Positions 12,983 to 39,460 of a stretch of 64,000 nt of DNA are shown here, piece by piece (positions within the stretch are counted from its first letter, which is position 1; every line of letters begins with the position of its first letter). The stretch is from the IMG/VR virus record IMGVR_UViG_3300032286_001748; one strand, 5' to 3'. The notes beneath the pieces are model-generated. The model was not told the DNA's origin. It saw nothing but the letters and a program-made list of their open reading frames with translations, and ran no database searches. The translations under genes and the position numbers were made by a program. Source of the DNA: an uncultured virus (IMG/VR IMGVR_UViG_3300032286_001748) (taxonomy: Duplodnaviria; Heunggongvirae; Uroviricota; Caudoviricetes).

Positions 12983-14074
12983 TCACCTCGATCCCTGGAT
13001 CTTGGCGCGGAGGTAACGCTGCGCGCTGTTCACGCGGTCCGCGCCCGTCTCGACCTTGCTGTGGACCCACTGCGGGAGGTCGTCGTCGTCCCGCAGCATC
13101 TGACGCATCGCGTGCGCGTCCGTCTCGAGGTTGCGGAGCGTGTTGCGGAGCATCCGGCCTTCGTGCGCGTCGGAGGGCACCGACCCGTAGTCGAGGTTTC
13201 GGGCGCGTGAGCCCCGGTTGGAGCTGCCCATCGGGAGCACGAGGAGGGCCACGCCGGCCGCGCCCGCCACCGCGAGGGCGGGGAGGAGCCACGCGGGCAT
13301 CGCGTCCGGCGCGGGGGCGCCCGGCGTGGGAGCGTCCGGCTGGGCCGACGCCGTGGTCGGCTGGGTCAGCGCGGTCGAGGTGGGCCCCTCGTCCGTCGAT
13401 GCGGCGGGGGCCGGCGCGGCGGGCGCAGGGGCGGGTGCAGAGGCAGTGGCGGGGGCGGGCACCGCAGGAGGGGCCTTGAACCGTTCGAGGGCCTCCTTTA
13501 CCGTCTCCGTGGGCTTCACGAGGCGGGTCAGGTTGTCGGTTCCGCCGGCTTCCACCAGCTCCTGCCGAAGGACGGGGAGGCGCTTGAGCAGCGCTTCCTT
13601 GGCGTTTCGGGCGCTCTCGAGCTTCGCGCCGTTTCCCTTGGCGGTCGTCCAGTCCACCGCCTTGGTGTTGAGGAGGAACGGAACCTTCTTGAACACGTTG
13701 TTCCACTCTCCCCACGCACCCGGCTGCTCCCCCGTCTGGAGCGCCGTCTTCACGATGGCGGGGGCGAGGTCGTTCACGATCCGCGCGATGGCTTCGTCGT
13801 AGGGCGCAGCGTTGGCGGGGGTGTCGGTGGTGGTGTTGCTCCACGCGGAGTAGACCTTGCGCTGCGCGGCGCCCGCGTCCTGCAGGACGCGCACCGCGCC
13901 CCACACCGCGTCCGCGTAGCTCTGGATGCCCTGCTCCCAGCCCTTCTGGAGGGGACGATCTCCAAGGCTCCGCGCGAGCGTGGAGAGACCGCGCAGGGTC
14001 TCGAGTCGCTTTTCGATCGGGGCGTCGGCGGGGGTGAAGCCGTAACGGGAAGGAAGGGAGGGGACAGGGCGCAT
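12983..14074 (-). CDS. membrane-anchored protein with internal tag and C-terminal phage domain
   Basis: Ala/Pro linker, TM WLLPALAVAGAAGVALLVL, GSSNRGSRA, then HEGRM...LRDDDDLPQWVHSKV. Confidence 0.65.
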   Translation of the reverse strand: MRPVPSLPSRYGFTPADAPIEKRLETLRGLSTLARSLGDRPLQKGWEQGIQSYADAVWGAVRVLQDAGAAQRKVYSAWSNTTTDTPANAAPYDEAIARIVNDLAPAIVKTALQTGEQPGAWGEWNNVFKKVPFLLNTKAVDWTTAKGNGAKLESARNAKEALLKRLPVLRQELVEAGGTDNLTRLVKPTETVKEALERFKAPPAVPAPATASAPAPAPAAPAPAASTDEGPTSTALTQPTTASAQPDAPTPGAPAPDAMPAWLLPALAVAGAAGVALLVLPMGSSNRGSRARNLDYGSVPSDAHEGRMLRNTLRNLETDAHAMRQMLRDDDDLPQWVHSKVETGADRVNSAQRYLRAKIQGSR

Positions 14075-14082
14075 GGGGGGCC

Positions 14083-14943
14083 TCAGCGAGCGGAGAGGAG
14101 GGAGGACTTGCTGCCCTCGGCGTAGGAGTAGGTGGACCCCTCCCGCCCGAGGACGAGGTGGTCGAGGAGGGTGTAGCCTAAGATCTTCCCAGCCTGGGCC
14201 ACGCGATAGGTCGTGGTGTCGTCCGCAGACGAGGGCTCGGCCACGCCCGAGGGGTGGTTGTGAACGAGGATGAGGCTCTTCGCGCGGGTCTCGACCGCGG
14301 GGAGGAGGACCTCGCGCACGTCGATGAGGCTCTGGTCCACCGCGCCCACATGAAGCGTCCGGCTTGCGAGGAGTCGGTTCTGCCCGTCGAAGTAGAGGCC
14401 GACCACGCGCTCCTGCGGGCCGGCAGCGTACGCACGGGCCAGCGCGACGGCGTCGGAAGGAGAGGTGATCGCCCTCCCCGCGCCCTCGACCGCGCCCTTG
14501 AGCTGGGAGCGCCGCATCAGCTCGGCGGCGGCCAGAACCCGTGCGCGGGCCATGGGCGTGAAGCCGGGTCGGTCGATGAAGCCCTCGGCCCGCGCCACGC
14601 GGGCGAGGTTGCCGTTCACGTCCCGTAGAAGCGCGCTCGCAGCCTCCAGTGGGTCTGCCGTGGTCGTCCCTGCGAGCAGAACGGCGACGAGGTCGGTGTC
14701 GCTCGTCTCCCGCACATCGACGCGCAGGAAGGCCTCCGCGACCTCCGTGAGCGGGTCGGGCTTCGCCCGTCGCTTCGGGGCGCTTCGGTCGGCGCTCCCG
14801 GTGGTCGCGCGCGCCGCGTGCAGCGCGGCGCGGAGCTGCTCCAGCGATGCGTGGGAACGACTCCCGCGCGGCTCTGTCCGGATCGCGAGCGCGATGGCGC
14901 CGACGCCGAGGAGCGAGGGGATGATCCAGCCTCGGCTGTCCAT
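14083..14943 (-). CDS. radC: tagged RadC-like JAB domain protein
   Basis: Tag MDSRGWIIPSLLGVGAIALAIRTEPRGSRS; intact ILVHNHPSG.EPSSAD...LLDHLVLG. Confidence 0.85.
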   Translation of the reverse strand: MDSRGWIIPSLLGVGAIALAIRTEPRGSRSHASLEQLRAALHAARATTGSADRSAPKRRAKPDPLTEVAEAFLRVDVRETSDTDLVAVLLAGTTTADPLEAASALLRDVNGNLARVARAEGFIDRPGFTPMARARVLAAAELMRRSQLKGAVEGAGRAITSPSDAVALARAYAAGPQERVVGLYFDGQNRLLASRTLHVGAVDQSLIDVREVLLPAVETRAKSLILVHNHPSGVAEPSSADDTTTYRVAQAGKILGYTLLDHLVLGREGSTYSYAEGSKSSLLSAR

Positions 14944-15608
14944 CAGCCCCCCAGATCGATGGGCGCGATGCGCTCGATGAACAGGCCGCCGCCGGGACCG
15001 CCCTCGTCGGTCTTGAGCATGGCGTGGACGCTTGCGGCCCGGAACGGTCCGACGCTGTGCTTCGACGCGCGCCCCGTGCTGTCCACGAGCCGGAACGTGA
15101 CGGTGGGGACGCCGCGCTCGGTCGCGGTCAGGTGGACCTCGTAGACCTTCCCGGTCTCCATCCCCGTGAACGGCACCCGACCGATGACGCGCACGCGGTC
15201 TCCGGCGTTCAGCTCCCGCGGCTTCCGGGGCATCGCCCCGCTGCGGAAGCCATCGACGTAGTCCGCGAACAGGAACAGGGCGTCCGCGGCCCGCTCCATG
15301 CGCGCCTTCTCCTGGCGCTCCATCTGGTTGCGGGGCGCGGTGCGGCGCGCGGCGCGCTGGAGGTTGCCGGCGAGCGTCCGGTAGTGGGCGCGGGTCGGGG
15401 CCTCGTACGCATGATCGGGCAGGTACACCTCGGCGTAGCTCGACCACGCGCCCTCGGCGCCGTCTGCGATCTTCTCGTCCACCTCGAGGGTGATGCCGTC
15501 GAACACGGACATGCGGGTCGCGGCCGAGCCCTTCCGATCTGCGACCATACCAGCGGCCGCGAGGAGGGCCACGCCACCCAGAGCCAGGGGAACACCGATC
15601 TCAGACAT
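14943..15608 (-). CDS. tagged hypothetical protein
   Basis: Tag MSEIGVPLALGGVALLAAAGMVADRKGSAA. Confidence 0.75.
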   Translation of the reverse strand: MSEIGVPLALGGVALLAAAGMVADRKGSAATRMSVFDGITLEVDEKIADGAEGAWSSYAEVYLPDHAYEAPTRAHYRTLAGNLQRAARRTAPRNQMERQEKARMERAADALFLFADYVDGFRSGAMPRKPRELNAGDRVRVIGRVPFTGMETGKVYEVHLTATERGVPTVTFRLVDSTGRASKHSVGPFRAASVHAMLKTDEGGPGGGLFIERIAPIDLGG

Positions 15609-15659: not shown

Positions 15660-16064
15660 TCATCCCCTCGCCCGCCGCCACGCCCCCACCGTCCCGATGT
15701 CGGGGCGGCCGAGCAGCCCGGCCCGCGCCTCGCGCGCCGTCAGCCGGGTGAAGTACGCATGCCGGGGGTGCTCCGGGTCGAGCAGCTCCTCGCAGCGGTG
15801 ATACACCGGGCGTGTGTCACCCCGGTAGGCTCGGCGCGTCAGCGTCCGCCCGTCCCAGCGCACGCTCTCCACCAGCGCGGGGTGGTCGCACCGGTCGAAC
15901 GAGGTGGTGCGCCCGAGCATCACGTCGTCGGGGCCCACCCGGGCCACCGACCAGTCCAGATCGGACACCCGACGCGCCACCGCGGCGATGCGCCGACGCG
16001 CGGCCGCGTCGAGCTGGTGGAGCGCGGAGCGATGGACGTACTGCCGGGCGCCGACGCGCTTCAC
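15660..16064 (-). CDS. domain resembling part of the DNA phosphorothioation-associated putative methyltransferases
   Basis: GTG 16064; KRVGARQYVHRSAL and PVYHRCEELLDPEHPRHAYFTRLTAREARAGLLG..IGT..W. Confidence 0.6.
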   Translation of the reverse strand: MKRVGARQYVHRSALHQLDAAARRRIAAVARRVSDLDWSVARVGPDDVMLGRTTSFDRCDHPALVESVRWDGRTLTRRAYRGDTRPVYHRCEELLDPEHPRHAYFTRLTAREARAGLLGRPDIGTVGAWRRARG

Positions 16065-18097
16065 CCGCGCCGCCAGGCCCCGACCACCGATCCAGACAGG
16101 GCCGGCAGGCGGACGGGGGTGAAGCCGGGCCCCAGCACCGCGCGCACCTCGGCGGCGAGCTGATCTGCGGTGTAGCCCCGCTGGAACCGGTCGCGGGCGC
16201 CGTCCTCTCCGATGATCTGGTGCCCGTCGCCGTTCCGGCTCCAGCCCGCGACGGTCGCGGCCACCTCGGCCTGGGGGCGCACCGCGAGGACGAGGTGACC
16301 ACCGGGCTTGACGTAGGCCGATGCCTCGCGCAGCGCGGCGTGCCGCTCGGCCTTGGGCAGCACGTTGAGGACGTAGGTGGCCAGCACGGTGTCGAACCTG
16401 CCGGTGGGGCGCTTCCGCACCGCCGCGTCGGGGTGGTGGGGGTCGTAGGGGGTGGCGCGCAGCGCCTTGGCGTCGGCCCCGCGCCCGCTCCCGAAGTCGA
16501 GGAGCCGTCCCCGCAGAAGCTGGGGCGCATGGGCGCGCAGATGCTGCACCGGGGCCGAGGGCCCGGTGCGGGCCATGGCGGTCTGGTCGTAGCCCGAGGG
16601 GGCGATGACGTTGGGAGAGCCCGCAGCCCAGCCGCGCCCCGTGCTGCAACGCGCCCACACGTCGCGGTAGATCCACCCGTAGTCGAGGAGCCGCCCGTCG
16701 TCCGCGAGGTTCTGGGTGGTGAGGTCCTGGATGCCGCAGGCGTTGAGCGCGTGACGCGTGGCCTCGCTCATCCTTCCCTTGCCGGTGGCGCGGACCTGTT
16801 CCATCAAGATCCAAGGAGCGCCGCCCTCGACCTCGCCCTCGAGGACGGGGACGAGGTGGCGTCGGATCTGCTCCGGGGCGTCCTCCCAGACCTCGGTCTC
16901 CGTGCGATTGGCCTGTTCTCCCTCTCGGTCGAACGCGACCTTGAGCGCGCCTCCCGGCACGGAGAACACGATGCGCTGGGCCCCCGCGCCAAGGTAGGTA
17001 GCGCCGTGGGCGCGCGCCCAACGGCGGAAGGCGCGCTCCTCGTCGGGCTCGCGCTCCCAGTCGTGCTCGTCGTACCAGTGGCGGAAGGCTTCCACGAAGG
17101 CGTCGGTGTCGAAGGGGGTGTTGGCGCCCCCCTCGCGGGCCTTCTTGGTCTTGCGGGCGATGTTCGGGGGCTGGGGCGTGAACTGCTGGCCCCGCGCGAG
17201 CCCCGCCCGCTTCGCGCGCGTCGTCGCGCCGATCTCGGCGGGGGTGAGAAGGTCGAACGCCTCGGCGGGCAGATAGCGCTCGCCCGTCTCGAGGCTCTCG
17301 GCCCCGGAATAGGTGCGCCAGTCCTGCCGCGTCCAGCGCGCGAGCGCGTTGTCCGGGTCCTTCGGCCCGAGGTAGCCGCCGCCGCGCGCTGTGTAGAGCT
17401 GGACGGCCCGCTGGGCCTTCCGGGCACTCCACTGGCCCGGTCGTCCGCCCTTGTCGCTGGCGGTGACTTCAGCCTTCACGCGCTCCCAGAGGGCGGGGTC
17501 GGTGCGGGGGGTCGTGCGGGCGGCGCTTCCGGTCGGCGTGGGCGCCAGGTCGGCCATCTCGATCGCGGGGAGGTGGGTGATCCCAAGCCGGTGAGCCGCG
17601 AACAACCGGTGCCGCCCGTCTGCGAAGTGACCATCCCAGGTCACGATGGGGGAGATCGCGGGGCCAGGGTTTGGGCGTGGTCGACGGACGCCGCGGACGA
17701 ACTCGGTGTAGGGGGTCGACGCGAGGAGGCGGCGCGCGACCTCGACGGGGTCGGAGCGGAGTGACGCCGGCACCAGGCGCTCCATTTCGTCCGCGAGTCG
17801 GTCGACATGCGCGGGTCCCCGGTCGTCCCAGGCGTCGTGTGCTACGCTCCGGTACAGCGGCTCGACTGCGACGAGGTGGAGCGGAAGCCGGGCGGGGGGC
17901 GAGAAGGGCTCTCCGCTTGTCGCCTCGATCCCATACCGCTCCTCCATGAAGTCCCCGATCAACACCCGCATGTCGTGCGGGAGGTCGACGTACGCGAGGG
18001 AGGGCAGCGCAGTGGAGGCCGCGCTCCCCCGCTTTCGCACGGCCCCCGCGAGCGCGAGGCCCGCCACGAGACCGAGGGCGAGATCACGCCCGTTCAT
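16061..18097 (-). CDS. tagged polyvalent protein: ParB-like, DUF5872-like, kinase-like and SAM methyltransferase domains
   Basis: Tag MNGRDLALGLVAGLALAGAVRKRGSAA; ADGRHRL; KGGRPGQWSARKAQ; LGAGAQR..DLTTQN..LLDYG; LLDFGSGRGAD..YVLNVL. Confidence 0.8.
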   Translation of the reverse strand: MNGRDLALGLVAGLALAGAVRKRGSAASTALPSLAYVDLPHDMRVLIGDFMEERYGIEATSGEPFSPPARLPLHLVAVEPLYRSVAHDAWDDRGPAHVDRLADEMERLVPASLRSDPVEVARRLLASTPYTEFVRGVRRPRPNPGPAISPIVTWDGHFADGRHRLFAAHRLGITHLPAIEMADLAPTPTGSAARTTPRTDPALWERVKAEVTASDKGGRPGQWSARKAQRAVQLYTARGGGYLGPKDPDNALARWTRQDWRTYSGAESLETGERYLPAEAFDLLTPAEIGATTRAKRAGLARGQQFTPQPPNIARKTKKAREGGANTPFDTDAFVEAFRHWYDEHDWEREPDEERAFRRWARAHGATYLGAGAQRIVFSVPGGALKVAFDREGEQANRTETEVWEDAPEQIRRHLVPVLEGEVEGGAPWILMEQVRATGKGRMSEATRHALNACGIQDLTTQNLADDGRLLDYGWIYRDVWARCSTGRGWAAGSPNVIAPSGYDQTAMARTGPSAPVQHLRAHAPQLLRGRLLDFGSGRGADAKALRATPYDPHHPDAAVRKRPTGRFDTVLATYVLNVLPKAERHAALREASAYVKPGGHLVLAVRPQAEVAATVAGWSRNGDGHQIIGEDGARDRFQRGYTADQLAAEVRAVLGPGFTPVRLPALSGSVVGAWRRG

Positions 18098-19581
18098 GGA
18101 CCCCTCCGGGGACGGACAGATCCGGAACCGTCGCGCGCCGCGCTCCCCTCCGCGCGGCACCTCGCCTCCTGCCCCCAGAAGCGCATCGCGCCGTAGTCGA
18201 GGAGGCGCCCGTCCGCGGCGAAGTTGGGCCGACGCAGATCCAAGAACCCGCACCCCTTGAGCGCGTCCATTGTTTCCTTCGGGATGTGCTGGGTGGCGCG
18301 CATCGGCTTGACCCTCTCCATGACCAGCCAGCTCCCCATCGGGTCGACCGCGAGGACGGGCACGAGGTGGGGGCGCATCGCCGCGCTCGCCTCGCGCCAC
18401 GCGCGGGCCTCGTCCCGGTTGGCTTCTCGTCCGTAGGGGGAGAAGACGAGCTTGAGCACGCGCGTGCCGTCTGGCTCCGCGAACACCGCGCGGGACTGCC
18501 CCGACCCGATGTAGACGAGCCCGTTCTTCTTCGCCCAACGGCCCATCTGCTGGGCCGTGGCGCTCGCCATCGTGTCGGTGAAGGTGCGGGCGAGGGCGTC
18601 CGCGTTGGGCCAGGCCTCGAGGGATGCACTCCCGCGCCGCACCCGCGCCGCGATGTTCACCTTGCGCGCCACCCTGTTCTGATGCGCCCCGCCCGTGCGC
18701 TCGATCCGCGGGGTGTAGGGGTCCAGCTCGACGGCGACGGTGCGGTCCCCGGCCTGAAGGTGCTCCACGAGCCGGTGGTGCCCGTCCAGCACGAAGTAGT
18801 GCCCGCGCGGCGTGTCGAGCGCGCTCACGCGGAGCGGTGCCTCGTAGCTGTACGACCGGCACCCCTCCGCGATGTCGTGCAGTGTCTCCTCGAGCTTGTC
18901 GGGGATCGTCCAGAAGCGCTCGACGGGGATGCGCTTCGGGGCCGCGGTGCGGGCGGCGCTCCCGCGCGCCAGTCCCGTCTCAAGCAGGCCTCGGCGCACG
19001 AGTCCATCCATCACGGACGTGTTGGTCTTGCTGTAGACGCGCGCGAGCGCCTCTCCGTAGGGGCCGCTCGTGTAGACGCGCCCCTGCCGCGGGTCTGCGT
19101 TGAAGCGCCGCCCTTCCTCTTCCTCTTCGTCCAGGAACCTGCGCGGGAGGGGGGCGCTCTTCACATCCGGGCGCTGCTCGTAGTAGTGCTTCCAGACGCG
19201 TGCGGCCTCGGGTGAGATCTCGCTCTGGTCCGGCACGACCCCGTGTGCGCCAAGCTGGTGGGCGATCTCGAGGCCCAGATCGTAGAGCAGCGGTCCGAGC
19301 CCGTCGAGACGGGCCTCCGTCTCGCTGACCTCGAAGAGGGTGGGGTGCCGAGGTCGGAACCCGCGTTCCATCCGAAAGAGCCCGACGAGGTCCTCTCCAC
19401 GGAGGGCGTAGATCTCCACGAAGGTTCGGAGGTCGTGCCGGTCGATGTTCACCTGAACGTGGACATCCGACGGAAGGTTCTCGGGTCGGAGCATGGCGCG
19501 CGAGCCGTGGGCGCGCACGGCTCCCGCCACCGCGAGGGCGGCGACGGCGCCGAGGGCGAGCATCCGTCCATCAGAGGTCAT
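18094..19581 (-). CDS. tagged polyvalent protein: GNAT-like, ParB-like and kinase-like domains
   Basis: Tag MTSDGRMLALGAVAALAVAGAVRAHGSRA; GLGPLLYD..ISPEAARVW; VLDGHHRL; IGSGQSR..DLRRPN..LLDYG. Confidence 0.8.
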   Translation of the reverse strand: MTSDGRMLALGAVAALAVAGAVRAHGSRAMLRPENLPSDVHVQVNIDRHDLRTFVEIYALRGEDLVGLFRMERGFRPRHPTLFEVSETEARLDGLGPLLYDLGLEIAHQLGAHGVVPDQSEISPEAARVWKHYYEQRPDVKSAPLPRRFLDEEEEEGRRFNADPRQGRVYTSGPYGEALARVYSKTNTSVMDGLVRRGLLETGLARGSAARTAAPKRIPVERFWTIPDKLEETLHDIAEGCRSYSYEAPLRVSALDTPRGHYFVLDGHHRLVEHLQAGDRTVAVELDPYTPRIERTGGAHQNRVARKVNIAARVRRGSASLEAWPNADALARTFTDTMASATAQQMGRWAKKNGLVYIGSGQSRAVFAEPDGTRVLKLVFSPYGREANRDEARAWREASAAMRPHLVPVLAVDPMGSWLVMERVKPMRATQHIPKETMDALKGCGFLDLRRPNFAADGRLLDYGAMRFWGQEARCRAEGSAARDGSGSVRPRRGP

Positions 19582-20191
19582 AGGCCACCACGCGTCCGTC
19601 CTTCGTCACCCCGAGGTTGAGGGTCAGATCGATGTCATCGGTCGGGAGCCCCCGGCAGATGGCGCGGGCGAGCCCCTTCGTCTCTGGGTAGCGTGCGAGC
19701 GTGTCGAGGTCTTCTGGGAAAAAAGCGCCAGCAAGAGCAAAGTACAGGTCTTGAAACCGAGGGTCGTCGTGCCCACCGTATCGGCGGGTGAGGAAGCCCT
19801 CGGGGTCGGTGTCGACCCGCTCCTTCCAGCTCACCACATGCCCGTCGATCTCGGTCATGGCGAAGACGGGGACCACCCCACCCTCAAAGTCCTCGTCCAG
19901 CAGGAGCGACTGCTTCTCCACGCTCCGTCCTCGACCGACACGGACAACGATGCCCTTCCGGGTCGTGTTGAACACACGCGCGTCACTCCCGGTGCCCAGC
20001 TCCGTCGTCGGGGCCGGGACCGTGACACCGCGGGCGGCGAGCTGCGCGCGGGCGGTGAGGGCGAGGCGCTTGTCGTAGCGCAGGCCCTCTGGGTCGAGCC
20101 GGCCCACGATGGCTGCGGAGCCGTGCCGACGCACGGCCCCCGCCACGGCAAAGCACGCCACGATCCCGAGGGTAAGATCGCGTCCGTTCAT
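19571..20191 (-). CDS. tagged kinase-like protein
   Basis: Tag MNGRDLTLGIVACFAVAGAVRRHGSAA; LGTGSDARVF..VVPVF..NLGVTKDGRVVAYD. Confidence 0.7.
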   Translation of the reverse strand: MNGRDLTLGIVACFAVAGAVRRHGSAAIVGRLDPEGLRYDKRLALTARAQLAARGVTVPAPTTELGTGSDARVFNTTRKGIVVRVGRGRSVEKQSLLLDEDFEGGVVPVFAMTEIDGHVVSWKERVDTDPEGFLTRRYGGHDDPRFQDLYFALAGAFFPEDLDTLARYPETKGLARAICRGLPTDDIDLTLNLGVTKDGRVVAYDL

Positions 20192-25648: not shown

Positions 25649-25668
25649 GGGAGGCTCCGGGGAGAGGG

Positions 25669-29330: not shown

Positions 29331-29368
29331 GGAGGCTCCGAGGAGAAAGGAGAAGAGGGAAGGGGTGA

Positions 29369-32584: not shown

Positions 32585-33267
32585 CGCGGCCACCGGGCCG
32601 GCTTCGACGGGGGTTCGCCGGTCCTCCCAAGGTGGGCATCGACTCGCGCGATCCCGCGGGCCACCTCCTTGTCTTGTTTCGCGATGCTCCGGATGGAGTG
32701 GGTCGGGGCGTAGACGAGGAAGTCCTCCTTCCGGTTTGACGCGGCGTACCCGTACTCCGGGTCTCGTCGCCCGAAACTCCACTTCGAGGAGGCGGGAACC
32801 GCGACCACGTTCCAGTAGTGGGAGACGCGGGGCTCTCCTCGGATCTCCCCGTTCGGATCCACGATGTAGTGTGCCGCGTCTTCCTTTACCTCGACCCAGT
32901 GGTGGTGCTCGTCTCGCCACACCTTGTCAAGCGGAAGCTCCTCGTCGCCCATCATCGTGCGCTTGTGGCGCAAGGAGGCTTCGCTGTCTTGCCACCAGTA
33001 CACGCCCACCCGGAGCTTGCGCGGGAGGCCGAGCCGGTCGCAGATCCACGCGAACACGGCCGCGCCCCCGTTGCAGGACCACACCCCGTCCGTCACCTCG
33101 CCCTTGATCTGCTCGAACAGCGCAACAGCGCGCCGCATCCGAGGCGAGAGGTCCGTGGCCTCCGGATTCCGCCACGGGGCCAGCTCGGAACGGCTCCCCC
33201 GCCGCCCCAGCGCCGCCCCCACGGCGAGCGCGCCGACGAGGGTGAGGGCGAGGGTCGATCCGTTCAT
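32581..33267 (-). CDS. tagged transglutaminase/papain-like protein
   Basis: Tag MNGSTLALTLVGALAVGAALGRRGSRS; WSCNGGA..HHWVEV..IVDP. Confidence 0.7.
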   Translation of the reverse strand: MNGSTLALTLVGALAVGAALGRRGSRSELAPWRNPEATDLSPRMRRAVALFEQIKGEVTDGVWSCNGGAAVFAWICDRLGLPRKLRVGVYWWQDSEASLRHKRTMMGDEELPLDKVWRDEHHHWVEVKEDAAHYIVDPNGEIRGEPRVSHYWNVVAVPASSKWSFGRRDPEYGYAASNRKEDFLVYAPTHSIRSIAKQDKEVARGIARVDAHLGRTGEPPSKPARWPR

Positions 33268-33284
33268 CGAAGACGGGCCGAGAC

Positions 33285-33663: not shown

Positions 33664-35559
33664 TTATCGGGGACTCCGGTTGTAGCTCAGCCGCGCGTCG
33701 TTCGGATCCCACGTCCCCACGTTCGGGCCCGACCCCGCGATGGGGGCGCGGTCGGTGCGCGAGAGGAGGGGGGCCGTGGCCGCGCTCTTGGCCTGGGTGG
33801 GCGAGAACCAGATGTAGACCGTGCCCGCGTTCGGGTACGGGTTGGCGCGCGTCGGCTTGGCTTTCCGCTTCGGAGGCCCGTGATACCAGTCCTCGCTGTT
33901 CCGGAGGATGAGCCCGTCGTGCCCTGCGGCGCGGGCCTGCTCGACCGCCGACTCCGTCCCGCGCCACACCTGTCCCCGACCGTCGAGGACCATCGGGTTC
34001 TGGATCGACAGGTAGAGCGGGACGACGCCCTCCTCGACCTGCTGGTAGTCCCCTGTGGCCCGATGGGGATCTGCGTAGCTGTTCGCCATGTCGTAGCGGT
34101 CGGTGGCGAAGTAGCTGTGGCCGCGCAGGGCCGACTTCCGGAACCCCTGCTGCACCAGCTCGCGGACATCCGGGGAGCCGTGGTACACAATGAGCGGCCT
34201 GCCGGCCCCGTCCACCACCTGGCTCGCCCCGAACCAGCGCCGGAAGGCCGGGCTGGAGGGGAGGTCGGTGGCGCGGCTCCCGCGCCGGTTCGCGCTCACC
34301 CGCGCATCCTCCGGATCGAAGGTCCCCGCGTTGTCGAGGGACTTGATCTGGGTCGGCTCGAGGGCGATCCACGCGTCGGACTGGTTGCTGTCGAAGTCGT
34401 CGCCTGTGACGAGGACCCCGTCGTACCCCTGGCGCCGCAGCGCGGCCCGGTAGTCCTCCACCGCGTTCGCGGCGATGGCGGTCCAGAGGGCGTCGGGGAG
34501 ATCGCGATGTCCGAGATCGACCCCATAGGCCTTCGCGAGCCGGGTGATGGATGCCTTCGGCAAGACTCGGATCTGCTCGATCCCCCGCTTGAGCGCCTCG
34601 CGGTCGTACGGGGGGAAGCCCCCCTTCTTTTGCTGCTCCTCATAGACGGTGGCCCACGCCGACCCCGGCTTTCGCGCCATCGCCTCGGCCTCCCGGTACA
34701 TCCGGCGCCACGCGCCAGGGCCGGCGAAGACCTTGGGGTTCTGGATGGAGAGCCAGTAGGCACGCACGCTCGGCCCATAGAGCGGGCCGGGGCGGCTGGC
34801 GAACCAGCTCCCGAGGGTGTCGATCTTCACCCACGCGCGCCGGCCCGCCTGCCGGGTCCGGTCGAACACCTCAAAGTTGGTGTCGTGCCCGCTGTGGTAG
34901 ACCACGCGCGGGCTCCCATCTGCCCACGCGACCGCGCTGCCCTTGAACCAGCGCCGGAAGGCGGGGCTGTCGGGGGCGCGCGGGGCGTCTACAGGGCGGC
35001 GCGGCACCTCGATCGGCCCCATCACCGCCGGCAGAGCCCCGTCGAACGCCATGTCGAGGAGCTTCGGGAGGGCCGCGCGCAGACCGGGGTGGAGATCATC
35101 GAGGTGGTTGACGAGGTCCTCCGCGCTCCACCACTGGGCGTCATCGTTCTCCCAGTTCAGGTTGATGAAGCGGCGCTCCATCGCGGCCGGCACCCGCACC
35201 ACCGAGGTGGTGTAGCGGAAGGACGAGGTGGGGCTTTGCCAGACAGAACTCCCCTGCACCTTCGCGTCGTCGGGGTCGATCTCCAGGCCCGTCTCCTCCT
35301 CCAGCTCCCGCAGGCCCGCGGTGAGGGCGTCCTCGCCGGGATCGACCGCGCCGCCCGGCAGGGCCCAGGTGCCGGGCTCCGTCACCTCGTCGGAGCGGAG
35401 CAGGACCAGCACCTTCCTCCCGGTCGTGAGCAGCACCCCGGCGCCCGCGCGGCCCCAGTGCCCGTCGCGCCCGAAGGCGCGCGAGCCAGAACGCGAGAGG
35501 GCGGCGGCGGCCGCGAGGACACCGACCGCGCCGAGGGTGAGGGGAAGTCCGGAGCGCAT
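33664..35559 (-). CDS. tagged Nudix hydrolase plus two ART-PolyVal-like domains
   Basis: Tag MRSGLPLTLGAVGVLAAAAALSRSGSRA; Nudix box GGAVDPGEDALTAGLRELEEETGL; two PAFRRWF..V.YH(S/G)..F..LSIQNP..GxDG domains. Confidence 0.85.
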   Translation of the reverse strand: MRSGLPLTLGAVGVLAAAAALSRSGSRAFGRDGHWGRAGAGVLLTTGRKVLVLLRSDEVTEPGTWALPGGAVDPGEDALTAGLRELEEETGLEIDPDDAKVQGSSVWQSPTSSFRYTTSVVRVPAAMERRFINLNWENDDAQWWSAEDLVNHLDDLHPGLRAALPKLLDMAFDGALPAVMGPIEVPRRPVDAPRAPDSPAFRRWFKGSAVAWADGSPRVVYHSGHDTNFEVFDRTRQAGRRAWVKIDTLGSWFASRPGPLYGPSVRAYWLSIQNPKVFAGPGAWRRMYREAEAMARKPGSAWATVYEEQQKKGGFPPYDREALKRGIEQIRVLPKASITRLAKAYGVDLGHRDLPDALWTAIAANAVEDYRAALRRQGYDGVLVTGDDFDSNQSDAWIALEPTQIKSLDNAGTFDPEDARVSANRRGSRATDLPSSPAFRRWFGASQVVDGAGRPLIVYHGSPDVRELVQQGFRKSALRGHSYFATDRYDMANSYADPHRATGDYQQVEEGVVPLYLSIQNPMVLDGRGQVWRGTESAVEQARAAGHDGLILRNSEDWYHGPPKRKAKPTRANPYPNAGTVYIWFSPTQAKSAATAPLLSRTDRAPIAGSGPNVGTWDPNDARLSYNRSPR

Positions 35560-35723: not shown

Positions 35724-36122
35724 TCAGGGGGCGTCGAGGACGGCGCCCGCACGCACAGATGCGAGCAGCGCCTCCAGTCGACGGAGCTGGATCTGTTCGT
35801 CCTTGATCCGATTCTCGATGTCCCGCACGAGCTTCCCTCGGGCTTCGGCTTCGGTCGCGAAGAAATGATACGAGAAGGTCTGCGTTACCCACTCCGGGTT
35901 GCACCCCGGCGCGTTGAGGAAGCTCGCCGCGTAGTAGGGGAACCTTCCATCTTCGACGCACCCGCCGTTGGGATCGTTGCAGCGGCCTGCGGTACGCACG
36001 GTCCCCGCTTGGATCCGGTCGTACTTCGGGCGGTACACCGTCGCGCCAACCACGAAGGCCTCCGCCTCTCGCTCCGCTTGGCGCTTCCATGCGGCCTCGT
36101 GCTCGGTGTCGAAGCGGCTCAT
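35724..36122 (-). CDS. hypothetical protein
   Basis: ATGA overlap with recA stop; MSRFDTEHEAAW. Confidence 0.6.
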   Translation of the reverse strand: MSRFDTEHEAAWKRQAEREAEAFVVGATVYRPKYDRIQAGTVRTAGRCNDPNGGCVEDGRFPYYAASFLNAPGCNPEWVTQTFSYHFFATEAEARGKLVRDIENRIKDEQIQLRRLEALLASVRAGAVLDAP

Positions 36123-36973
36123 GCGGACTCCGGATCCAGAAGTGCTTCCCTCGACCATCCTTCCTGCCACGCCGCGAGCGCCTCGGTGGAATCGAGGCGG
36201 CAACTGTCGTACGCGCGTCCGCTCCGGTGTGCCGCGCGGCCGAGTTCGACCCACTCCGCGTGGGCGTGTGCAGATTCGCAGAGATCTGCCTTCGGGTCCG
36301 CGCCCAGTCGGAACACGCCCTTCGTGAACGGATGCGCGAGCTTGTTCTTGACGACCGTGGCGAGGACGCCCCGCTCGTCCGGGCGAAGGATGACCCGGAC
36401 GGACGCGTAGTATTTCAAGGCGTTCCCGCCCGCGGCGACCTCGTGGGGGCCGAAGGTGACCCCGGTCTTCACCCGGAGCGTGTTCGTGAACAGCACCGTG
36501 GTCTGAGTCTGCTCCGCGAGCGGGACGAGCGTGCGGATGATCTTGGACATCCGGCGGGAAAGCGGGTCGGCCGCGTCCTCGCTCGAGCCCAGCCCAGCCA
36601 CGGAGTCCACGACGACCAGGGGGACCGCGCCGCTTCGGATCATGGCCTCCACGATGTCGAGCGCCTGCTCTCCGTGGTCGGGCTGCGCGAGGATCATCCG
36701 GCGCAGGTGGACCCCGTGCGCCTCTGCCCAGGCGGGATCGAACCGGCCATCGGCGTCCACGAACATCGCCTGCGCCCCACGCGCCTGTACGGCCGCGACC
36801 GCGTGGAGCGCGAGGGTGGTCTTCCCGACCGACGCGGGGCCCAGCACCTCAACGAGGCGGCCCAGCGGCCAGCCGCCGATGCCGAGCGCCGTGTCGAGCG
36901 CCGGGACGCCGGTTGAGATCACAGGGGTGGGCTCCGGAGGAGCGACGGGTGCTTCGGGGGGCGCGTATTCCAT
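36119..36973 (-). CDS. recA: divergent RecA-family protein
   Basis: ISTGVPALDTALGIGGWPLGRLVEVLGPASVGKTTL, VVVDSVA, GGNALKYYASVR, VVKNK. Confidence 0.9.
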   Translation of the reverse strand: MEYAPPEAPVAPPEPTPVISTGVPALDTALGIGGWPLGRLVEVLGPASVGKTTLALHAVAAVQARGAQAMFVDADGRFDPAWAEAHGVHLRRMILAQPDHGEQALDIVEAMIRSGAVPLVVVDSVAGLGSSEDAADPLSRRMSKIIRTLVPLAEQTQTTVLFTNTLRVKTGVTFGPHEVAAGGNALKYYASVRVILRPDERGVLATVVKNKLAHPFTKGVFRLGADPKADLCESAHAHAEWVELGRAAHRSGRAYDSCRLDSTEALAAWQEGWSREALLDPESA

Positions 36974-36990
36974 ACGGTCTCCAAGAGGAG

Positions 36991-37018
36991 CCCCTATCCC
37001 GTACTTGTCATCCGTCAA
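36991..37018 (-). promoter_or_regulatory. putative recA promoter, recurrent motif
   Basis: TTGACG-ga-TGACAA...16 nt...TAGGGG, then GGAG RBS. Confidence 0.55.
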
Positions 37019-37503
37019 GTTTGGTACGGGCTCTCCTCCCGGTAGCGTCGGATCTCTGCCGCCGTCCACGGCCCCTTGCCCCAGGTGAAGGGCCGCACCC
37101 GGATCGGGATGCGGTTCATCCGCGCGGCATGGGCGCGGTGGTGGCCGTCCTCAATGGCGACGTAGTCGCGGCCGAGGTCGGCGTCCGTGAGCGGGCGCGA
37201 CCAGGCCAACTCATGCTCAAACCCACCCTCCTCGGCGTCCCGGTAGTTCTGGAGATCTCCCTCGTCCACCGTTCCGATCTGCCCGGAGATGGGCGGGAAC
37301 CGGCCCCACCCACCTGCCCGCTTCATGGAGGCCGCGTAGCGGTCCACCTGATCGAAGTCGGTGGCGTTGTAGCCGGACTCGCGGAAGAGGTCGGAGGCGA
37401 TCTCAATGTATGCGGGGGTGCGCGCGGCGCTCCCCCGCTTCCCCACGGCCGCCCCCACGGCGAGGGCGCCCACGGCCCCCAGCGTCCACCCCACCCCGCT
37501 CAT
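37015..37503 (-). CDS. tagged ParB/Srx-like protein
   Basis: Tag MSGVGWTLGAVGALAVGAAVGKRGSAA; FPPI..IEDGHHRAHAA. Confidence 0.72.
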   Translation of the reverse strand: MSGVGWTLGAVGALAVGAAVGKRGSAARTPAYIEIASDLFRESGYNATDFDQVDRYAASMKRAGGWGRFPPISGQIGTVDEGDLQNYRDAEEGGFEHELAWSRPLTDADLGRDYVAIEDGHHRAHAARMNRIPIRVRPFTWGKGPWTAAEIRRYREESPYQT

Positions 37504-39068
37504 CGCGCCGCCCCCACATTCACCACCCCGCCCGACCAGCCGACCGTGAGCGGCAGCTCGTGGAGGCGGGGCTGGTCGGCCCGGAGGCTGCGCGGCGCGA
37601 CGAGCGCTTTGTGCAGGCGCGCTCCCAGCCGCTGCGCCTCGGCCTCGGTGCGGGCCGCGGGCGCGTACACGAACCAGCCGGGGACCGCCCCGCGCACATA
37701 CCGCTGCACGAGGAGGACCCGCTCGTCCACGCCCTCCGGCCACGCCCGGAACAGGTCGCTGGCGTCGATGGTCTCGGGCAGCGCACCCGCCGCCGCCTCG
37801 AACGCGCGCCGCGCCCGCGTCTCAGGAGAGGCCTGCGGTTCGGGCTCGTCCTCGAAGAAGTCGAAGTCGAGCGCGCGGCTCCCGCGCCGCGCCCGGCTCT
37901 TCCCCTGCTCCCCGTCCAGCGTGAAGATCCACTCGATCCCGCTGTGGGTGAGCCAGTAGGCGGGGACGCCCCGGTAGGTGCCCTTGTCGTAGCCGACGTG
38001 CCAGTCGCGCGAGATGGAGAAGTCGCGGTCGTAGCCCAGCGACTTCTGGACCCACTTCCACTGCTCCGGCCCGATGGCCCGCGCGAAGGTCGCGCGGCTC
38101 ACCCCGGTGGCCGTCTCCTTCATCGCGGAGATGTCCTCGTAGGTCGAGCCGATGCAGTTCGTGACGAAGCGGTAACGGCCCATCCCGGACTCCACGCGCG
38201 CCGCCGACCCCTTCCCCCACTCCGCGCGCTGGGCTCGGATCTTCGCAAGCTCCCGCTCGTGGTAGGCGAGGGCCTCGCGCTTCTCGGCCAGCGCCCGCGC
38301 GTACCCGGGCCCCCACCCGCCGCGCGGCTCCATGCCTGCGATCTCCTCCTTGCGGCGGGCGATGCCCCGCTGGAGCTGGGCGATCTGGTTGTCCAGCTCC
38401 GCGGGCGTGAAGACCATGGCCGACCCCTCCCGCACCCCCGCCACCCGCGCCGCGCGCGCCTCCCCGTGCGCCGCGAGCCGGGCGCCGAGCTGCTGCATGT
38501 ACGCGCGCCGCCCCTCGCGCACGGCGTTGCGCCACGCCGGGTACAGCCCGCTCTCCGCAAAGTGGAGCTTCCCGCGGCTCACCTCGAAGATCGACCCGTC
38601 CTGCCCCACGCCGAGGTAGCCGATCTCCGCGGGGAAGTAGACGCGCACCCCGAGGCCAGGCTTCGTCCAGATCCGGAGCTGGCTGGGCCCGCCCGCGGCG
38701 CGGATCGCAGCGACGAGGGCCTCGGCGCTCTCGAGCGCGAAGGTGCGGTCGAGCGCGGAGGCCGCGTCCCCGGCCGCGCGCTCCCGCTGCATCGCGCGGT
38801 AGTGGGCCGCGTCCGCCCTCGCCTCCTCCACCCGCTGGGCGAGGTGGGCGAGCCACTCCTCCCAGTCCGGATCGTCCGTGATCTCCTTCCGCCGGGCCGC
38901 GTCGAGCTTGGCCTGGCGGGCATCCACCTCGGCGTCGAGCCGGGCCTGCTCTGCCGCGACGGCGGCGGCGCGCGCGGCCGTCTCCGAGGTCGCGGCGCTC
39001 CCGCGCCGGGCCGCGCCCAGGACGGCGAGGCCCGCGACGAGGCCCAAGGTGAGCGTGGATCCGTTCAT
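37500..39068 (-). CDS. tagged multidomain protein, domains unrecognised
   Basis: Tag MNGSTLTLGLVAGLAVLGAARRGSAA; internal EGSAM, KGSAAR and RRGSRA junctions. Confidence 0.75.
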   Translation of the reverse strand: MNGSTLTLGLVAGLAVLGAARRGSAATSETAARAAAVAAEQARLDAEVDARQAKLDAARRKEITDDPDWEEWLAHLAQRVEEARADAAHYRAMQRERAAGDAASALDRTFALESAEALVAAIRAAGGPSQLRIWTKPGLGVRVYFPAEIGYLGVGQDGSIFEVSRGKLHFAESGLYPAWRNAVREGRRAYMQQLGARLAAHGEARAARVAGVREGSAMVFTPAELDNQIAQLQRGIARRKEEIAGMEPRGGWGPGYARALAEKREALAYHERELAKIRAQRAEWGKGSAARVESGMGRYRFVTNCIGSTYEDISAMKETATGVSRATFARAIGPEQWKWVQKSLGYDRDFSISRDWHVGYDKGTYRGVPAYWLTHSGIEWIFTLDGEQGKSRARRGSRALDFDFFEDEPEPQASPETRARRAFEAAAGALPETIDASDLFRAWPEGVDERVLLVQRYVRGAVPGWFVYAPAARTEAEAQRLGARLHKALVAPRSLRADQPRLHELPLTVGWSGGVVNVGAAR

Positions 39069-39460
39069 CCGCTCACCCTGCGCCGACGCAGCAGCTCCCG
39101 CGTCTCCAGCGGGGTCAGGTCCCTCCGCAGGACGGCCTCGATCTCCCGCGTCAGGCGCCCGTCCTCCCAGCGCGCGATCCATGCGTCTGGCGCGTCGTGG
39201 TCGGAGGTCCAGTCCTCAATCTCCCGCTCGACGGTCTCCACGCTCTGGCGGATCTCCTCGTCCCAGTCGGGGAACAGGCCCGTCATGCGCGCGTCGAGGC
39301 GGGCCTTCTCGTCCAGCAGCGAGAGCAGCGGCGCGTAGGGCCAGTCCTGTACGAGGGTGAGGTCGATCTGCTGCGCGCGGCTGGACGAGCCGCGCTTCAC
39401 GCGGCCTGCGGCGGCGAGCAGGGCGACCGCGCCGAGCGCGAGGGGGAGTCCATTGTTCAT
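39065..39460 (-). CDS. tagged small protein
   Basis: Tag MNNGLPLALGAVALLAAAGRVKRGSSSRA. Confidence 0.75.
   Translation of the reverse strand: MNNGLPLALGAVALLAAAGRVKRGSSSRAQQIDLTLVQDWPYAPLLSLLDEKARLDARMTGLFPDWDEEIRQSVETVEREIEDWTSDHDAPDAWIARWEDGRLTREIEAVLRRDLTPLETRELLRRRRVSG

What the first reader, a model, noticed from the sequence alone, without database searches (positions are those of the whole stretch)
12983..39460. Array of over 20 phage genes sharing one N-terminal membrane tag fused to shuffled enzymatic payloads
Seen: ORFs starting at 14943, 15608, 18097, 19581, 20191, 21300, 22187, 23258, 24412, 25146, 25648, 26675, 29016, 29330, 30265, 32584, 33267, 35559, 37503, 39068, 39460 (and 63488) all begin with a ~25-35 aa tag. 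It is a short polar start (MNGRDL, MNGSTL, MAGKILDNG, xGLPL), a Gly/Ala-rich hydrophobic helix (LGxVxxLAxxGA), usually 1-3 Arg/Lys, then GS(A/R)(A/S). After the tag the proteins are unrelated. Most are translationally coupled (ATGA) on one strand. Established: kinase, GNAT, ART, ParB, JAB, Nudix, PRTase and methyltransferase domains are typical of phage/plasmid polyvalent proteins, but those are usually single giant polypeptides. Basic residues after the helix imply an N-out anchor with a cytoplasmic payload (positive-inside rule), not a Sec/Tat signal. Inference: the tag is a shared address, either for packaging into a lipid-containing virion/vesicle or for docking to the host inner membrane, delivering a modular host-takeover/anti-defence arsenal. 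I know no described system with this architecture.
Basis: partly seen in the sequence, partly recalled or inferred. Interest (0 to 1): 0.95.

Follow-up and report, generated by a model that had tools for sequence, protein, structure and literature searches.

The report
Shared leader on phage effector array
An uncultured high-GC phage carries over twenty neighbouring genes whose proteins all begin with the same short greasy leader and a Gly-Ser joint, followed by swappable enzyme modules, which looks like one common address label for a whole arsenal of host-manipulating enzymes.

Summary
A leader HMM scores them 27-56 bits; the next best place in six frames scores 11.7. Codons differ, so conservation is at protein level. 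The leader is not private: 262 protein clusters elsewhere carry it, always at the N-terminus, and 30 metagenome loci hold similar one-strand arrays. It matches no Pfam or NCBIfam model and was found in no isolated phage or reference genome.

New here: the G-S-(R/A)-(A/S) joint also recurs inside multi-module proteins, exactly where modules begin that elsewhere follow a leader directly. Payloads are polyvalent-protein domains (RadC/JAB, ART-PolyVal, GNAT, YunG, Nudix, methyltransferases, RecA), so this is a disaggregated polyvalent protein.

Best reading (about 0.45): a weakly hydrophobic N-out/C-in membrane leader plus a processing and exchange joint. Main rival (0.3): a capsid-targeting propeptide cut by the head protease, as in T4 and P1. 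The head genes lie outside the window, so the destination stays open. Undescribed as far as four literature searches show.

The parts
14083..14943 (-). leader-bearing gene; payload RadC-like JAB domain
   Evidence: leader 34.1 bits; PF04002 E 1.6e-32
14943..15608 (-). leader-bearing gene; payload unknown
   Evidence: leader 38.2 bits; no Pfam family at E<=0.01
16061..18097 (-). leader-bearing gene; DUF5872 + class I methyltransferase; internal joint at residue 190
   Evidence: leader 50.6 bits; PF13489 1.7e-9, PF19197 4.4e-4; joint
18094..19581 (-). leader-bearing gene; three internal joints (residues 207, 317, 479); modules found directly after a leader in L015 and L016
   Evidence: leader 46.3 bits; phrog_4301
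19571..20191 (-). leader-bearing gene; payload unknown
   Evidence: leader 56.1 bits
20188..21300 (-). leader-bearing gene; weak GNAT; internal joints at residues 209 and 217
   Evidence: leader 34.8 bits; PF00583 2.8e-4
21297..22187 (-). leader-bearing gene; payload unknown
   Evidence: leader 39.7 bits
22197..23258 (-). leader-bearing gene; internal joint at residue 157; C-terminal module follows a leader directly in L025 and L028
   Evidence: leader 48.7 bits; phrog_2859
23255..24412 (-). leader-bearing gene (GTG start); marginal PRTase-like; internal joints at residues 195 and 199
   Evidence: leader 38.7 bits; PF00156 E 0.092
   Evidence: leader 45.7 bits; phrog_11084 of unknown function; no PDB match with profile A7
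25172..25648 (-). leader-bearing gene, MAGK(K)ILDNG subclass
   Evidence: leader 27.1 bits
25740..26675 (-). leader-bearing gene, MAGKILDNG subclass
   Evidence: leader 40.7 bits
28333..29016 (-). leader-bearing gene; payload unknown
   Evidence: leader 33.2 bits
29016..29330 (-). leader-bearing gene, MAGKILDNG subclass; its 70-aa module is internal in P0087, P0140 and P0148
   Evidence: leader 37.8 bits
29369..30265 (-). leader-bearing gene; GNAT + YunG
   Evidence: leader 49.2 bits; PF24585 1.5e-16, PF13508 2.7e-7
30897..31124 (-). degenerate 23rd member (75 aa): decayed leader plus fragment of the module of 20188-21300
   Evidence: 11.7 bits; sequence; tblastn to L025
31121..32584 (-). leader-bearing gene; ART-PolyVal
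   Evidence: leader 45.2 bits; PF18760 2.1e-12
32581..33267 (-). leader-bearing gene; transglutaminase-like Cys-His-Asp fold (candidate peptidase or deamidase)
   Evidence: leader 46.4 bits; invariant C65, H121-123, D137; model pLDDT 73.8; VIA Z 6.6-5.0 to 2hly, TglA, LapG, NATs, PeiW, SseI
33664..35559 (-). leader-bearing gene; Nudix + ART-PolyVal, internal joint at residue 427 just before the ART module
   Evidence: leader 37.6 bits; PF00293 1.3e-16, PF18760 1e-23
36119..36922 (-). RecA/UvsX-like gene inside the array, no leader here; a relative elsewhere (P0054) carries the leader
   Evidence: PF00154 3.2e-58
37015..37503 (-). leader-bearing gene; ParB/sulfiredoxin-like fold (weak); relatives P0004 and P0005 carry the module internally after a G-S-R joint
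   Evidence: leader 47.8 bits
37500..39068 (-). leader-bearing gene; internal joints at residues 287 and 396
   Evidence: leader 36.0 bits
39065..39460 (-). first leader-bearing gene of the array
   Evidence: leader 41.7 bits
39457..39909 (-). small protein with several hydrophobic segments, overlapping the first leader gene by 4 nt; found in the same place in L010, L011, L012 and L014
12983..14074 (-). gene after the last leader gene: N-domain, Pro/Ala linker, internal leader-like helix, S-N-R-G-S-R-A joint, 75-aa module that follows a leader in L024
62604..63488 (-). outlying leader-bearing gene beside membrane and peptidoglycan-hydrolase genes
   Evidence: leader 38.5 bits; phrog_4301
61631..62377 (-). 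leader-like helix + basic loop with G-S-A + second hydrophobic helix + Pro/Ala linker + unknown domain
60870..61634 (-). decayed MNG leader + G-S-A joints + second hydrophobic helix + linker + Peptidase_M15_4
   Evidence: N-terminal 86 aa are 43% identical to the leader-bearing M23 protein of L015
62374..62607 (-). 77-aa single-helix protein; in L024 its homologue replaces the leader of the M15_4 protein, fused at T-G-S-A-D-R-R

Best explanation
Each gene encodes three parts: a leader, a joint, and one to four effector modules separated by further copies of the joint.

The leader is a weakly hydrophobic N-terminal helix. It carries no net charge before it and two to three basic residues after it. 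I read it as an N-out/C-in signal-anchor whose composition resembles that of releasable SAR (signal-arrest-release) helices. It would take the protein to the cytoplasmic membrane with the payload on the cytoplasmic side.

The joint, basic residues then G-S-(R/A)-(A/S), is a conserved hinge or processing site. It is also the exact point at which modules have been exchanged, fused and split.

The payloads are the domain set of phage and plasmid 'polyvalent proteins'. The array is therefore a disaggregated polyvalent protein whose pieces are held together by a common address instead of a common polypeptide.

Shown: the leader, the joint, its internal recurrence, module shuffling in register, the payload families and the spread in metagenomes.

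Inferred: membrane insertion and its orientation, cleavage at the joint, and the purpose. I take the purpose to be gathering the arsenal at the membrane, either for action there or as a step towards loading into assembling heads.
For: - Leader anatomy in 22 window and 148 outside sequences: the uncharged run has a median of 17.5 and 16 residues, N-flank net charge is about 0, and C-flank net charge is +2.4 and +2.6.
- Composition: 56-58% G/A/S/T in the uncharged run, against 26-47% in five other hydrophobic segments of the window. This matches the published description of SAR domains (PMC9239132, passages).
- No second hydrophobic segment occurs in most payloads.
- Three peptidoglycan-related proteins have this layout: leader or leader-like helix, basic loop with G-S-A, a second hydrophobic helix, a Pro/Ala linker, then the M23, M15_4 or unknown domain. 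They are P0168, P0171 and window 61631-62377. This is a coherent hairpin topology only if the first helix is N-out/C-in.
- In L024 the leader of the M15_4 protein is replaced by an unrelated, more hydrophobic single-helix protein module.
- A small protein with several hydrophobic segments is conserved right upstream of the first leader gene in the window and in 4 loci.
- Joint: GS[RA][ASTN] occurs 12 times in 6,098 payload residues, against 1.48 +/- 1.19 in 1000 shuffles with a maximum of 7.
- 51 of 61 internal occurrences of modules that elsewhere follow a leader keep G-S just upstream.
- 41 of 71 modules after an internal joint have a BLAST match that starts directly after a leader in another protein. 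5 of these are self-matches.
- Protein-level conservation is shown by the codon test.
Against: - The helix is short and weak. 10 of 22 window leaders have uncharged runs of only 15-16 residues, and only 8 of 22 reach a Kyte-Doolittle mean of 1.6 over 19 residues.
- The leader is conserved in sequence (MNG, L-x-L-G, G-S), far more than a plain anchor needs. The same holds in a marine relative, P0088.
- Tethering RecA, a C5 DNA methylase, Nudix and ADP-ribosyltransferases to a membrane has no obvious rationale.
- Window protein 12983-14074 has the helix after a 260-aa N-domain without a signal peptide. That domain could not easily be placed outside.
- No transmembrane predictor could be run and no experiment exists.
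- Cleavage at the joint is not shown.
Confidence: 0.45

Rival explanations
1. The leader is a capsid-targeting propeptide with no membrane step. It binds the scaffold, portal or inner capsid surface of the procapsid. The joint is the cleavage site of the head-maturation protease. The freed enzymes are ejected with the DNA, as for T4 internal proteins and P1 DarB.
For: - The payload set is that of polyvalent proteins, which are held to be packaged and injected (PMC5512222, passages; Pfam).
- Window modules match parts of very long phage families: phrog_21376 (1664 positions) and phrog_30335 (2900 positions).
- N-terminal signals of 30 residues or fewer are sufficient for packaging in P1, and the same paper cites Mullaney and Black for T4 (PMC9024508, passages).
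- A joint repeated between modules is what a protease site would look like.
- Leader-bearing or leader-like peptidoglycan hydrolases (M23, M15_4) would make sense as ejected entry enzymes. They lie beside a 736-aa protein with a capsid-decoration-like domain and tail-fibre PHROG hits.
- The sequence-specific conservation of the leader fits a binding peptide.
Against: - The main array is co-oriented and translationally coupled with SSB, RecA/UvsX, AlkB and other DNA-metabolism genes, not with head genes.
- No capsid, portal, scaffold or head-protease gene is in the window or in the 30 loci, so the key prediction could not be tested.
- A 16-20-residue uncharged helix on a soluble cargo would be prone to enter the membrane or aggregate.
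- The asymmetric charge pattern is explained better by membrane topology.
Confidence: 0.3
2. The leader is a self-association element. The glycine-zipper-like helices bundle with each other, so that all tagged proteins co-assemble into one body (a factory, condensate or inner body), and the joint is a flexible hinge.
For: Small residues recur every 3-4 positions (G9, G12/13, G17, G21 in the alignment). One leader subclass weakly resembles ATP synthase subunit c (E 0.0065, far below the family cut-off).
Against: There is no direct evidence. It does not explain the charge asymmetry or the strict N-terminal position. It is not exclusive of the two readings above.
Confidence: 0.1
3. The leader is only the inherited N-terminus of an old paralogue family. 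The joint is a scar of gene fusions, and neither has a common function.
For: Tandem paralogue families with shared N-termini are common in phages. Some fusions look accidental: P0076 and P0159 carry a whole or part of a leader internally.
Against: - Payloads are different folds.
- Synonymous sites are near saturation while the peptide is kept.
- The leader is kept across 262 clusters, including a marine contig.
- G-S is retained at 51 of 61 internal boundaries.
Confidence: 0.07

Closest known systems
Polyvalent proteins of phages and conjugative elements (Iyer, Burroughs, Anand, de Souza, Aravind 2017, PMC5512222; passages read)
   Same: The domain repertoire is the same: ART-PolyVal, RadC/JAB, GNAT, Nudix, methyltransferases, ParB-like and RecA-like domains, peptidoglycan peptidases. 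The mosaic reshuffling is the same, and so is the idea of processing into separate domains.
   Different: There, 2-15 domains sit in one giant polypeptide, often tied to MuF or portal domains. Here the modules are spread over 22 genes of 1-4 modules, each with its own leader. The terms transmembrane, signal peptide, TM helix and linker do not occur in the main text of that paper, and 'membrane' occurs only 3 times.
Capsid targeting sequences of T4 internal proteins and of P1 DarB (PMC9024508, passages read; T4 as cited there)
   Same: A short N-terminal address on otherwise unrelated cargo. In T4 it is followed by a head-protease site, and the cargo is anti-restriction enzymes.
   Different: The P1 authors found no consensus among the N-termini of the Dar proteins. 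I recall the T4 signal as about 10 residues and not hydrophobic. Here one conserved, hydrophobic, 25-30-residue leader serves more than 20 genes per genome, and packaging is untested.
SAR (signal-arrest-release) domains of phage endolysins and pinholins (PMC9239132, passages read)
   Same: An N-terminal, charge-free, Gly/Ala-rich, weakly hydrophobic helix that hydropathy methods often miss.
   Different: SAR endolysins have 2-3 basic residues before the helix and an exported muralytic domain, and share no sequence motif. Here the basic residues follow the helix, most payloads are cytoplasm-type enzymes, and the sequence is conserved.
Polymorphic toxins, including the phage MuF family (PMC5576092 and PMC12226406; search listing and abstract starts only)
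   Same: A constant N-terminal part that names the transport route, with variable C-terminal modules exchanged by recombination. I recall that other polymorphic toxins have a short conserved junction motif (VENN in CdiA, DPxGL in Rhs).
   Different: The constant part here is a 30-residue leader, not a folded domain. There are more than 20 copies per genome. No immunity genes or secretion system were identified.
Encapsulin cargo-loading peptides (recalled, no call)
   Same: A short Gly/Ser/Leu-rich peptide followed by basic residues that docks cargo enzymes to the inside of an HK97-fold shell.
   Different: These peptides are usually C-terminal and about 10 residues long. No shell gene is available here to test. 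The resemblance is a lead only.

Membership tests
Polyvalent proteins (Iyer et al. 2017) | Domain repertoire of invasion-phase effectors (ART-PolyVal, RadC, GNAT, Nudix, MTase, ParB-like) | tested here: met
   Pfam on the window proteins. Pfam on 150 outside leader proteins: 39 of 150 have a family at E<=1e-4, and 22 of those have ART-PolyVal.
Polyvalent proteins (Iyer et al. 2017) | Many domains (2-15) in a single polypeptide | tested here: not met
   22 separate genes of 104-678 aa. At most three G-S-(R/A) joints lie after residue 45 in any one protein.
Polyvalent proteins (Iyer et al. 2017) | Delivered with the DNA (virion-packaged or transferred by a T4SS) | not testable with these tools
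   No virion data exist, and no head genes are in the window.
T4/P1-type capsid targeting sequence | N-terminal peptide sufficient for packaging of foreign cargo | not testable with these tools
   Needs a cultured phage and reporter fusions.
T4/P1-type capsid targeting sequence | Cleavage motif shared with capsid and scaffold precursors and cut by the head protease | not tested
   No capsid, scaffold or protease gene was found in the window or in loci L002-L031. The rest of the 127-kb contig could not be fetched.
T4/P1-type capsid targeting sequence | Genes lie among or are co-expressed with virion genes | tested here: inconclusive
   The main array is coupled to DNA-metabolism genes. One member (62604-63488) and two leader-like genes lie beside a decoration/tail-fibre-like gene. 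The promoter and terminator scans were uninformative.
SAR domain / signal-anchor | N-terminal charge-free weakly hydrophobic Gly/Ala-rich helix | tested here: met
   The uncharged run is 15-21 residues long and 56% G/A/S/T.
SAR domain / signal-anchor | Basic residues before the helix (N-in) and an exported muralytic payload | tested here: not met
   N-flank net charge is about 0 and C-flank about +2.4. Payloads are mostly cytoplasm-type enzymes.
Sec / Tat / lipoprotein signal peptide | Positive n-region, twin arginine before the h-region, A-x-A site or lipobox Cys | tested here: not met
   The leader sequences and position frequencies show none of these features.
Polymorphic toxin systems | Constant N-terminal part, conserved junction, variable C-terminal modules | tested here: met
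Polymorphic toxin systems | Cognate immunity gene after each toxin and a dedicated secretion route | not tested
   Small ORFs without a leader lie in the array (15660-16064, 33285-33611, 35724-36122), but none was examined as an immunity gene.
Any curated family covering the leader itself | Profile match over residues 1-30 | tested here: not met
   No Pfam or NCBIfam match covers the leader. The only match reaching into it is ATP synthase subunit c (residues 7-59, 16.6 bits against a cut-off of 120). The protein atlas gave no usable hit.

The most novel reading that the evidence does not exclude
The leader plus joint is a universal plug-and-play cargo system of a phage head. Any enzyme module given the leader is loaded into the assembling particle, possibly from the membrane on which heads are built or into an internal lipid layer. 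It is then cut free at G-S-(R/A)-(A/S), and more than 20 different enzymes are co-injected with the DNA. That would be a phage counterpart of encapsulin cargo-loading peptides and of viral polyprotein processing, and a natural toolkit for packaging foreign proteins.
Probability: 0.3. Interest if true: 0.9.

Novelty: new variant of a known kind. Interest (0 to 1): 0.8.

Why it matters
Phages are known to carry effector enzymes against host defences. How many different proteins are brought to one place, or into one particle, is understood for very few cases (T4 internal proteins, P1 Dar).

Here a single short leader and a four-residue joint are used by more than 20 genes per genome and by at least 262 protein clusters in metagenomes. 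Modules have been swapped exactly at the joint. This gives:
- a directly testable address label (fuse the leader to a reporter);
- a candidate processing site;
- a catalogue of mostly unknown modules (111 of 150 outside proteins have no Pfam family at E<=1e-4) that are marked by their leader as belonging to one functional arsenal;
- evidence that 'polyvalent proteins' can exist in a disaggregated form.

Tried and rejected
- **Whole genome.** None is held for this window.
- **Rest of the 127,251-bp contig.** An exact 45-mer was not found in IMG/VR. The metagenome records behind the loci cannot be searched. The capsid type therefore remains unknown.
- **IMG/VR scans.** The leader alignment A2 gave 10 pattern matches and 1 tblastn relative, but no locus was returned. 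The L-T-L-G-L-V-G-A-L-A pattern gave 0 matches. The Nudix-ART protein gave only L001, which has no leader.
- **GTDB species genomes.** Two peptide patterns were tried. There was no true hit, and L032 is a false positive.
- **Isolated phages and plasmids.** There was no DNA match in phages. A tblastn search with a leader found no match in phages, with the low-complexity filter on. Searches with an ART protein found only payload-level hits in phages and plasmids. Searches of phages with the PAPS reductase and the 806-aa protein found only partial, low-identity hits.
- **Alignments too diverse for pattern search.**
- **Promoter and terminator scans.** Nothing above the shuffles (two searches were size slips).
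- **Other look-ups.** No tRNA genes. No usable hit in the protein atlas. Earlier-findings look-ups found nothing on this genome or sequence.
- **PDB sequence searches.** Profiles of the ParB-like and 'kinase' payloads gave nothing significant.
- **Complex prediction.** The conserved upstream small hydrophobic protein (A9) was run with the leader (A1). The result was no verdict, score 0.00, after seven hand-ins that were not queued because the queue was full.
- **Structure of the leader.** It was modelled with pLDDT below 50 in both folds, so no structural statement on it is possible.
- **Readings considered and dropped.**
  - Sec, Tat or lipoprotein signal: the charge pattern is wrong and there is no lipobox.
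  - Type IV prepilin leader: I recall the defining features as Gly at -1, Phe at +1 and Glu at +5, which are absent.
  - C-terminal sorting signals: wrong end of the protein.
  - DNA-level repeat or recent gene conversion: excluded by the codon test.

Full report
**Setting.** The window is 66-75% G+C. A codon-usage gene call gives 107 genes covering 92.6% of it. Recognisable genes are phage-like:
- an M15_3 endolysin among small membrane proteins (9.0-10.9 kb);
- a dNMP kinase and RdgC;
- SSB, RecA/UvsX, AlkB, a PAPS-reductase-like protein and a Mg-chelatase-like ATPase;
- a 736-aa protein with tail-fibre and decoration PHROG hits and a capsid-decoration-like stretch (PDB 9nx3, E 4.9e-6).

No capsid, portal, terminase or head-protease gene was recognised. 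The source contig is 127,251 bp, so about half of the element is unseen. There is no near relative among 50,697 phage records or in PLSDB plasmids.

**The observation.** Their first ~30 residues align as follows:
- (M)NG-x-x-L-(T/A)-L-G;
- a Gly/Ala/Leu/Val run;
- 1-4 basic residues;
- G-S-(R/A)-(A/S).

A profile of the 22 finds them at 27.1-56.1 bits in the six-frame translation. The next place scores 11.7 bits and is a decayed 23rd member (30897-31124). Nothing else exceeds 5.8 bits.

Because the profile was trained on these sequences, the independent evidence is the outside search. Among 1.84 billion representatives, 262 proteins match at E<=0.001. All 150 listed match within their own first 10 residues. 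A few of these are the window's own proteins (for example P0075).

G-S is in place in 22 of 22 and 148 of 150 leaders. The residue before it is Arg in 78% of the outside set, and the residue after it is Arg in 67% or Ala in 20%.

Between 12 same-register leaders, identical amino acids use identical codons in 52.6% of cases, against 45.1% expected from codon usage. The peptide, not the DNA, is conserved. 14 of 22 starts overlap the preceding stop codon.

**Spread.** One scan of JGI metagenomes with the pattern MNGRDL[TA]LG gave 30 loci. The leader profile finds 97 matches at E<=0.01 in them, all on the strand of the seed match. There are up to 13 matches in 20 kb (L024, on a 104-kb contig) and 9 in 9 kb (L002).

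Parts of the window are syntenic with L015, L017, L018, L025 and others, but genes and modules are inserted, lost or re-joined between them. Cluster members come from ENA, JGI and Logan assemblies. One (P0088) is in a marine MAG record.

The leader has no Pfam or NCBIfam model. It was not found in IMG/VR by two patterns or in 185,579 species genomes by two patterns.

Four literature searches and passages of the polyvalent-protein and jumbo-phage papers showed no description of it. Supplements were not read.

**The joint is a module boundary.** The second half of the profile also hits inside many leader proteins. GS[RA][ASTN] occurs 12 times in the 6,098 payload residues of the 22 window proteins. 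Shuffles give 1.48 +/- 1.19, with a maximum of 7 in 1000. In 12,669 residues of the other window genes it occurs 7 times, 3 of them in leader-related proteins.

I also ran a test that does not use the motif. I took the 60 residues beginning six positions after the first G-S of each leader protein and looked for internal copies in other proteins.
- Of 61 internal copies, 51 have G-S just upstream.
- 40 of those also have a basic residue 0-2 positions before the G-S.
- 10 have no G-S.
- Several copies are inherited versions of one event.

Conversely, 41 of 71 modules after an internal joint match a segment that starts directly after a leader elsewhere, mostly residue 1 to residue 1. Five are self-matches. 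Examples:
- The ART-PolyVal module follows a leader in P0020, P0025 and P0035, and follows an internal joint in window 33664-35559.
- The module of window 29016-29330 is internal in P0087, P0140 and P0148.
- The ParB-like module of 37015-37503 lies behind other domains and a G-S-R joint in P0004 and P0005.
- The marine P0088 has four internal joints.

**Payloads.** Pfam finds the following in the window:
- RadC/JAB;
- DUF5872 plus a methyltransferase;
- GNAT;
- GNAT plus YunG;
- ART-PolyVal;
- Nudix plus ART-PolyVal.

Among the 150 outside proteins, 39 have a family at E<=1e-4: ART-PolyVal 22, GNAT 6, YunG 5, Nudix 4, plus RecA (P0054), a C5 DNA methylase (P0056), RadC, DUF5872, DUF5591 and PRTase. 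Window modules match segments of very long PHROG families of unknown function.

Two folds were made:
- The payload of 37015-37503 (pLDDT 75.8) gives weak but consistent ParB/sulfiredoxin-class matches, with Foldseek E 0.1-3.
- The payload of 32581-33267 (pLDDT 73.8) has invariant Cys, His and Asp. It matches transglutaminase-like Cys-His-Asp enzymes at VIA Z 6.6-5.0 (TglA, LapG, arylamine N-acetyltransferases, PeiW, SseI). This Z range is middling. It is a candidate peptidase or deamidase. Nothing links it to the joint.

**What the leader is.** The features that point to a membrane helix with the N-terminus outside are:
- An uncharged run of 15-21 residues, no net charge before it and +2.4 after it.
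- A class of peptidoglycan-related proteins built as leader or decayed leader, basic loop with G-S-A, a second hydrophobic helix, a Pro/Ala linker, then an M23 domain (P0168, L015), an M15_4 domain (window 60870-61634) or an unknown domain (61631-62377). The enzyme reaches the cell wall only if the first helix is N-out/C-in or stays in the cytoplasm.
- In L024 the first helix is replaced by the homologue of a separate, more hydrophobic one-helix protein (window 62374-62607), fused at T-G-S-A-D-R-R.
- A small protein with several hydrophobic segments sits just upstream of the first leader gene in the window and in four loci.

Against a stable anchor:
- The helix is short and 56% G/A/S/T, against 26-47% in five other hydrophobic segments of the window.
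- Only 8 of 22 leaders pass a classical hydropathy threshold.
- This composition matches that reported for releasable SAR domains. Those have their basic residues on the other side and no shared motif.
- The leader's sequence conservation, and the idea of tethering RecA or a DNA methylase to a membrane, are hard to explain by anchoring alone.
- Window protein 12983-14074 carries the helix and joint after a 260-residue N-domain without a signal peptide.

**The rival.** A capsid-targeting propeptide followed by a head-protease site is the established way in which T4 and P1 load anti-restriction proteins. It is the expected fate of polyvalent-protein domains, and it would explain a joint repeated between modules.

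It could not be tested, because no head gene is available. In addition, the main array is coupled to DNA-metabolism genes rather than to virion genes.

A combined route is possible: membrane tether first, encapsidation and cleavage later. I recall, from no call, that T4 proheads assemble on the membrane.

**Verdict.** The feature is real, widespread and undescribed as far as the searches here show. It is best filed as a new variant of the polyvalent-protein and polymorphic-effector theme: one leader, one joint and many exchangeable modules in more than 20 genes per genome.

My odds are:
- membrane leader with a processing and exchange joint: 0.45;
- direct capsid-targeting propeptide: 0.30;
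- self-association element: 0.10;
- functionless inheritance: 0.07;
- the remainder is unassigned.

Noticed in passing
window 9001-10927 (+): Likely lysis cassette. The M15_3 endolysin (10162-10614; PF08291 3.9e-17, phrog_894 2.2e-31) is flanked by four small proteins with one or two hydrophobic segments.
   Followed up: partly
window 25649-25660, 26676-26687, 29331-29342 (minus strand, just upstream of the three MAGK(K)ILDNG-type starts): The three genes of the MAGKILDNG leader subclass share a near-identical upstream stretch, (c)ggagcctcc(c), right before the ATG. The other leader genes do not have it. It may be a shared ribosome-binding or regulatory element.
   Followed up: no
L024:1154-2515 (-): An IS605-type OrfB/TnpB transposase (PF01385 2.6e-29, PF07282 4.8e-23) is inserted between leader genes of the related 104-kb contig.
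   Followed up: no
window 11393-12079 (-) and L015:10402-11112: The gene three places downstream of the array is 60% identical to a locus protein with a sigma-70 region 4 match (PF04545 1.1e-6). It may be a phage sigma factor next to the array.
   Followed up: no
window 48192-49916 (-): The 574-585-aa protein has its PAPS-reductase domain only in the C-terminal part (residues 430-513), behind a long unassigned N-terminal region. It is the first gene of the long leftward gene run.
   Followed up: no
window 63488-64000 (-), full length in P0178: This is the C-terminal part of a conserved 427-aa protein with no Pfam or PHROG family. It has two hydrophobic segments, and its stop overlaps the start of the outlying leader gene.
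   Followed up: partly
window 18094-19581, 23255-24412, 62604-63488: One module (phrog_4301, unknown function) recurs in three leader proteins of the window.
   Followed up: no
P0076 residues 196-218; P0159 around residue 450: A whole leader (P0076) or its C-terminal part with the joint (P0159) lies inside a longer protein, as if two neighbouring leader genes had been read or fused together.
   Followed up: no
window 27599-28363 (-) versus L022:1008: This window protein has no leader, but its 47%-identical relative in L022 carries one. The leader can therefore be present or absent on the same payload.
   Followed up: partly
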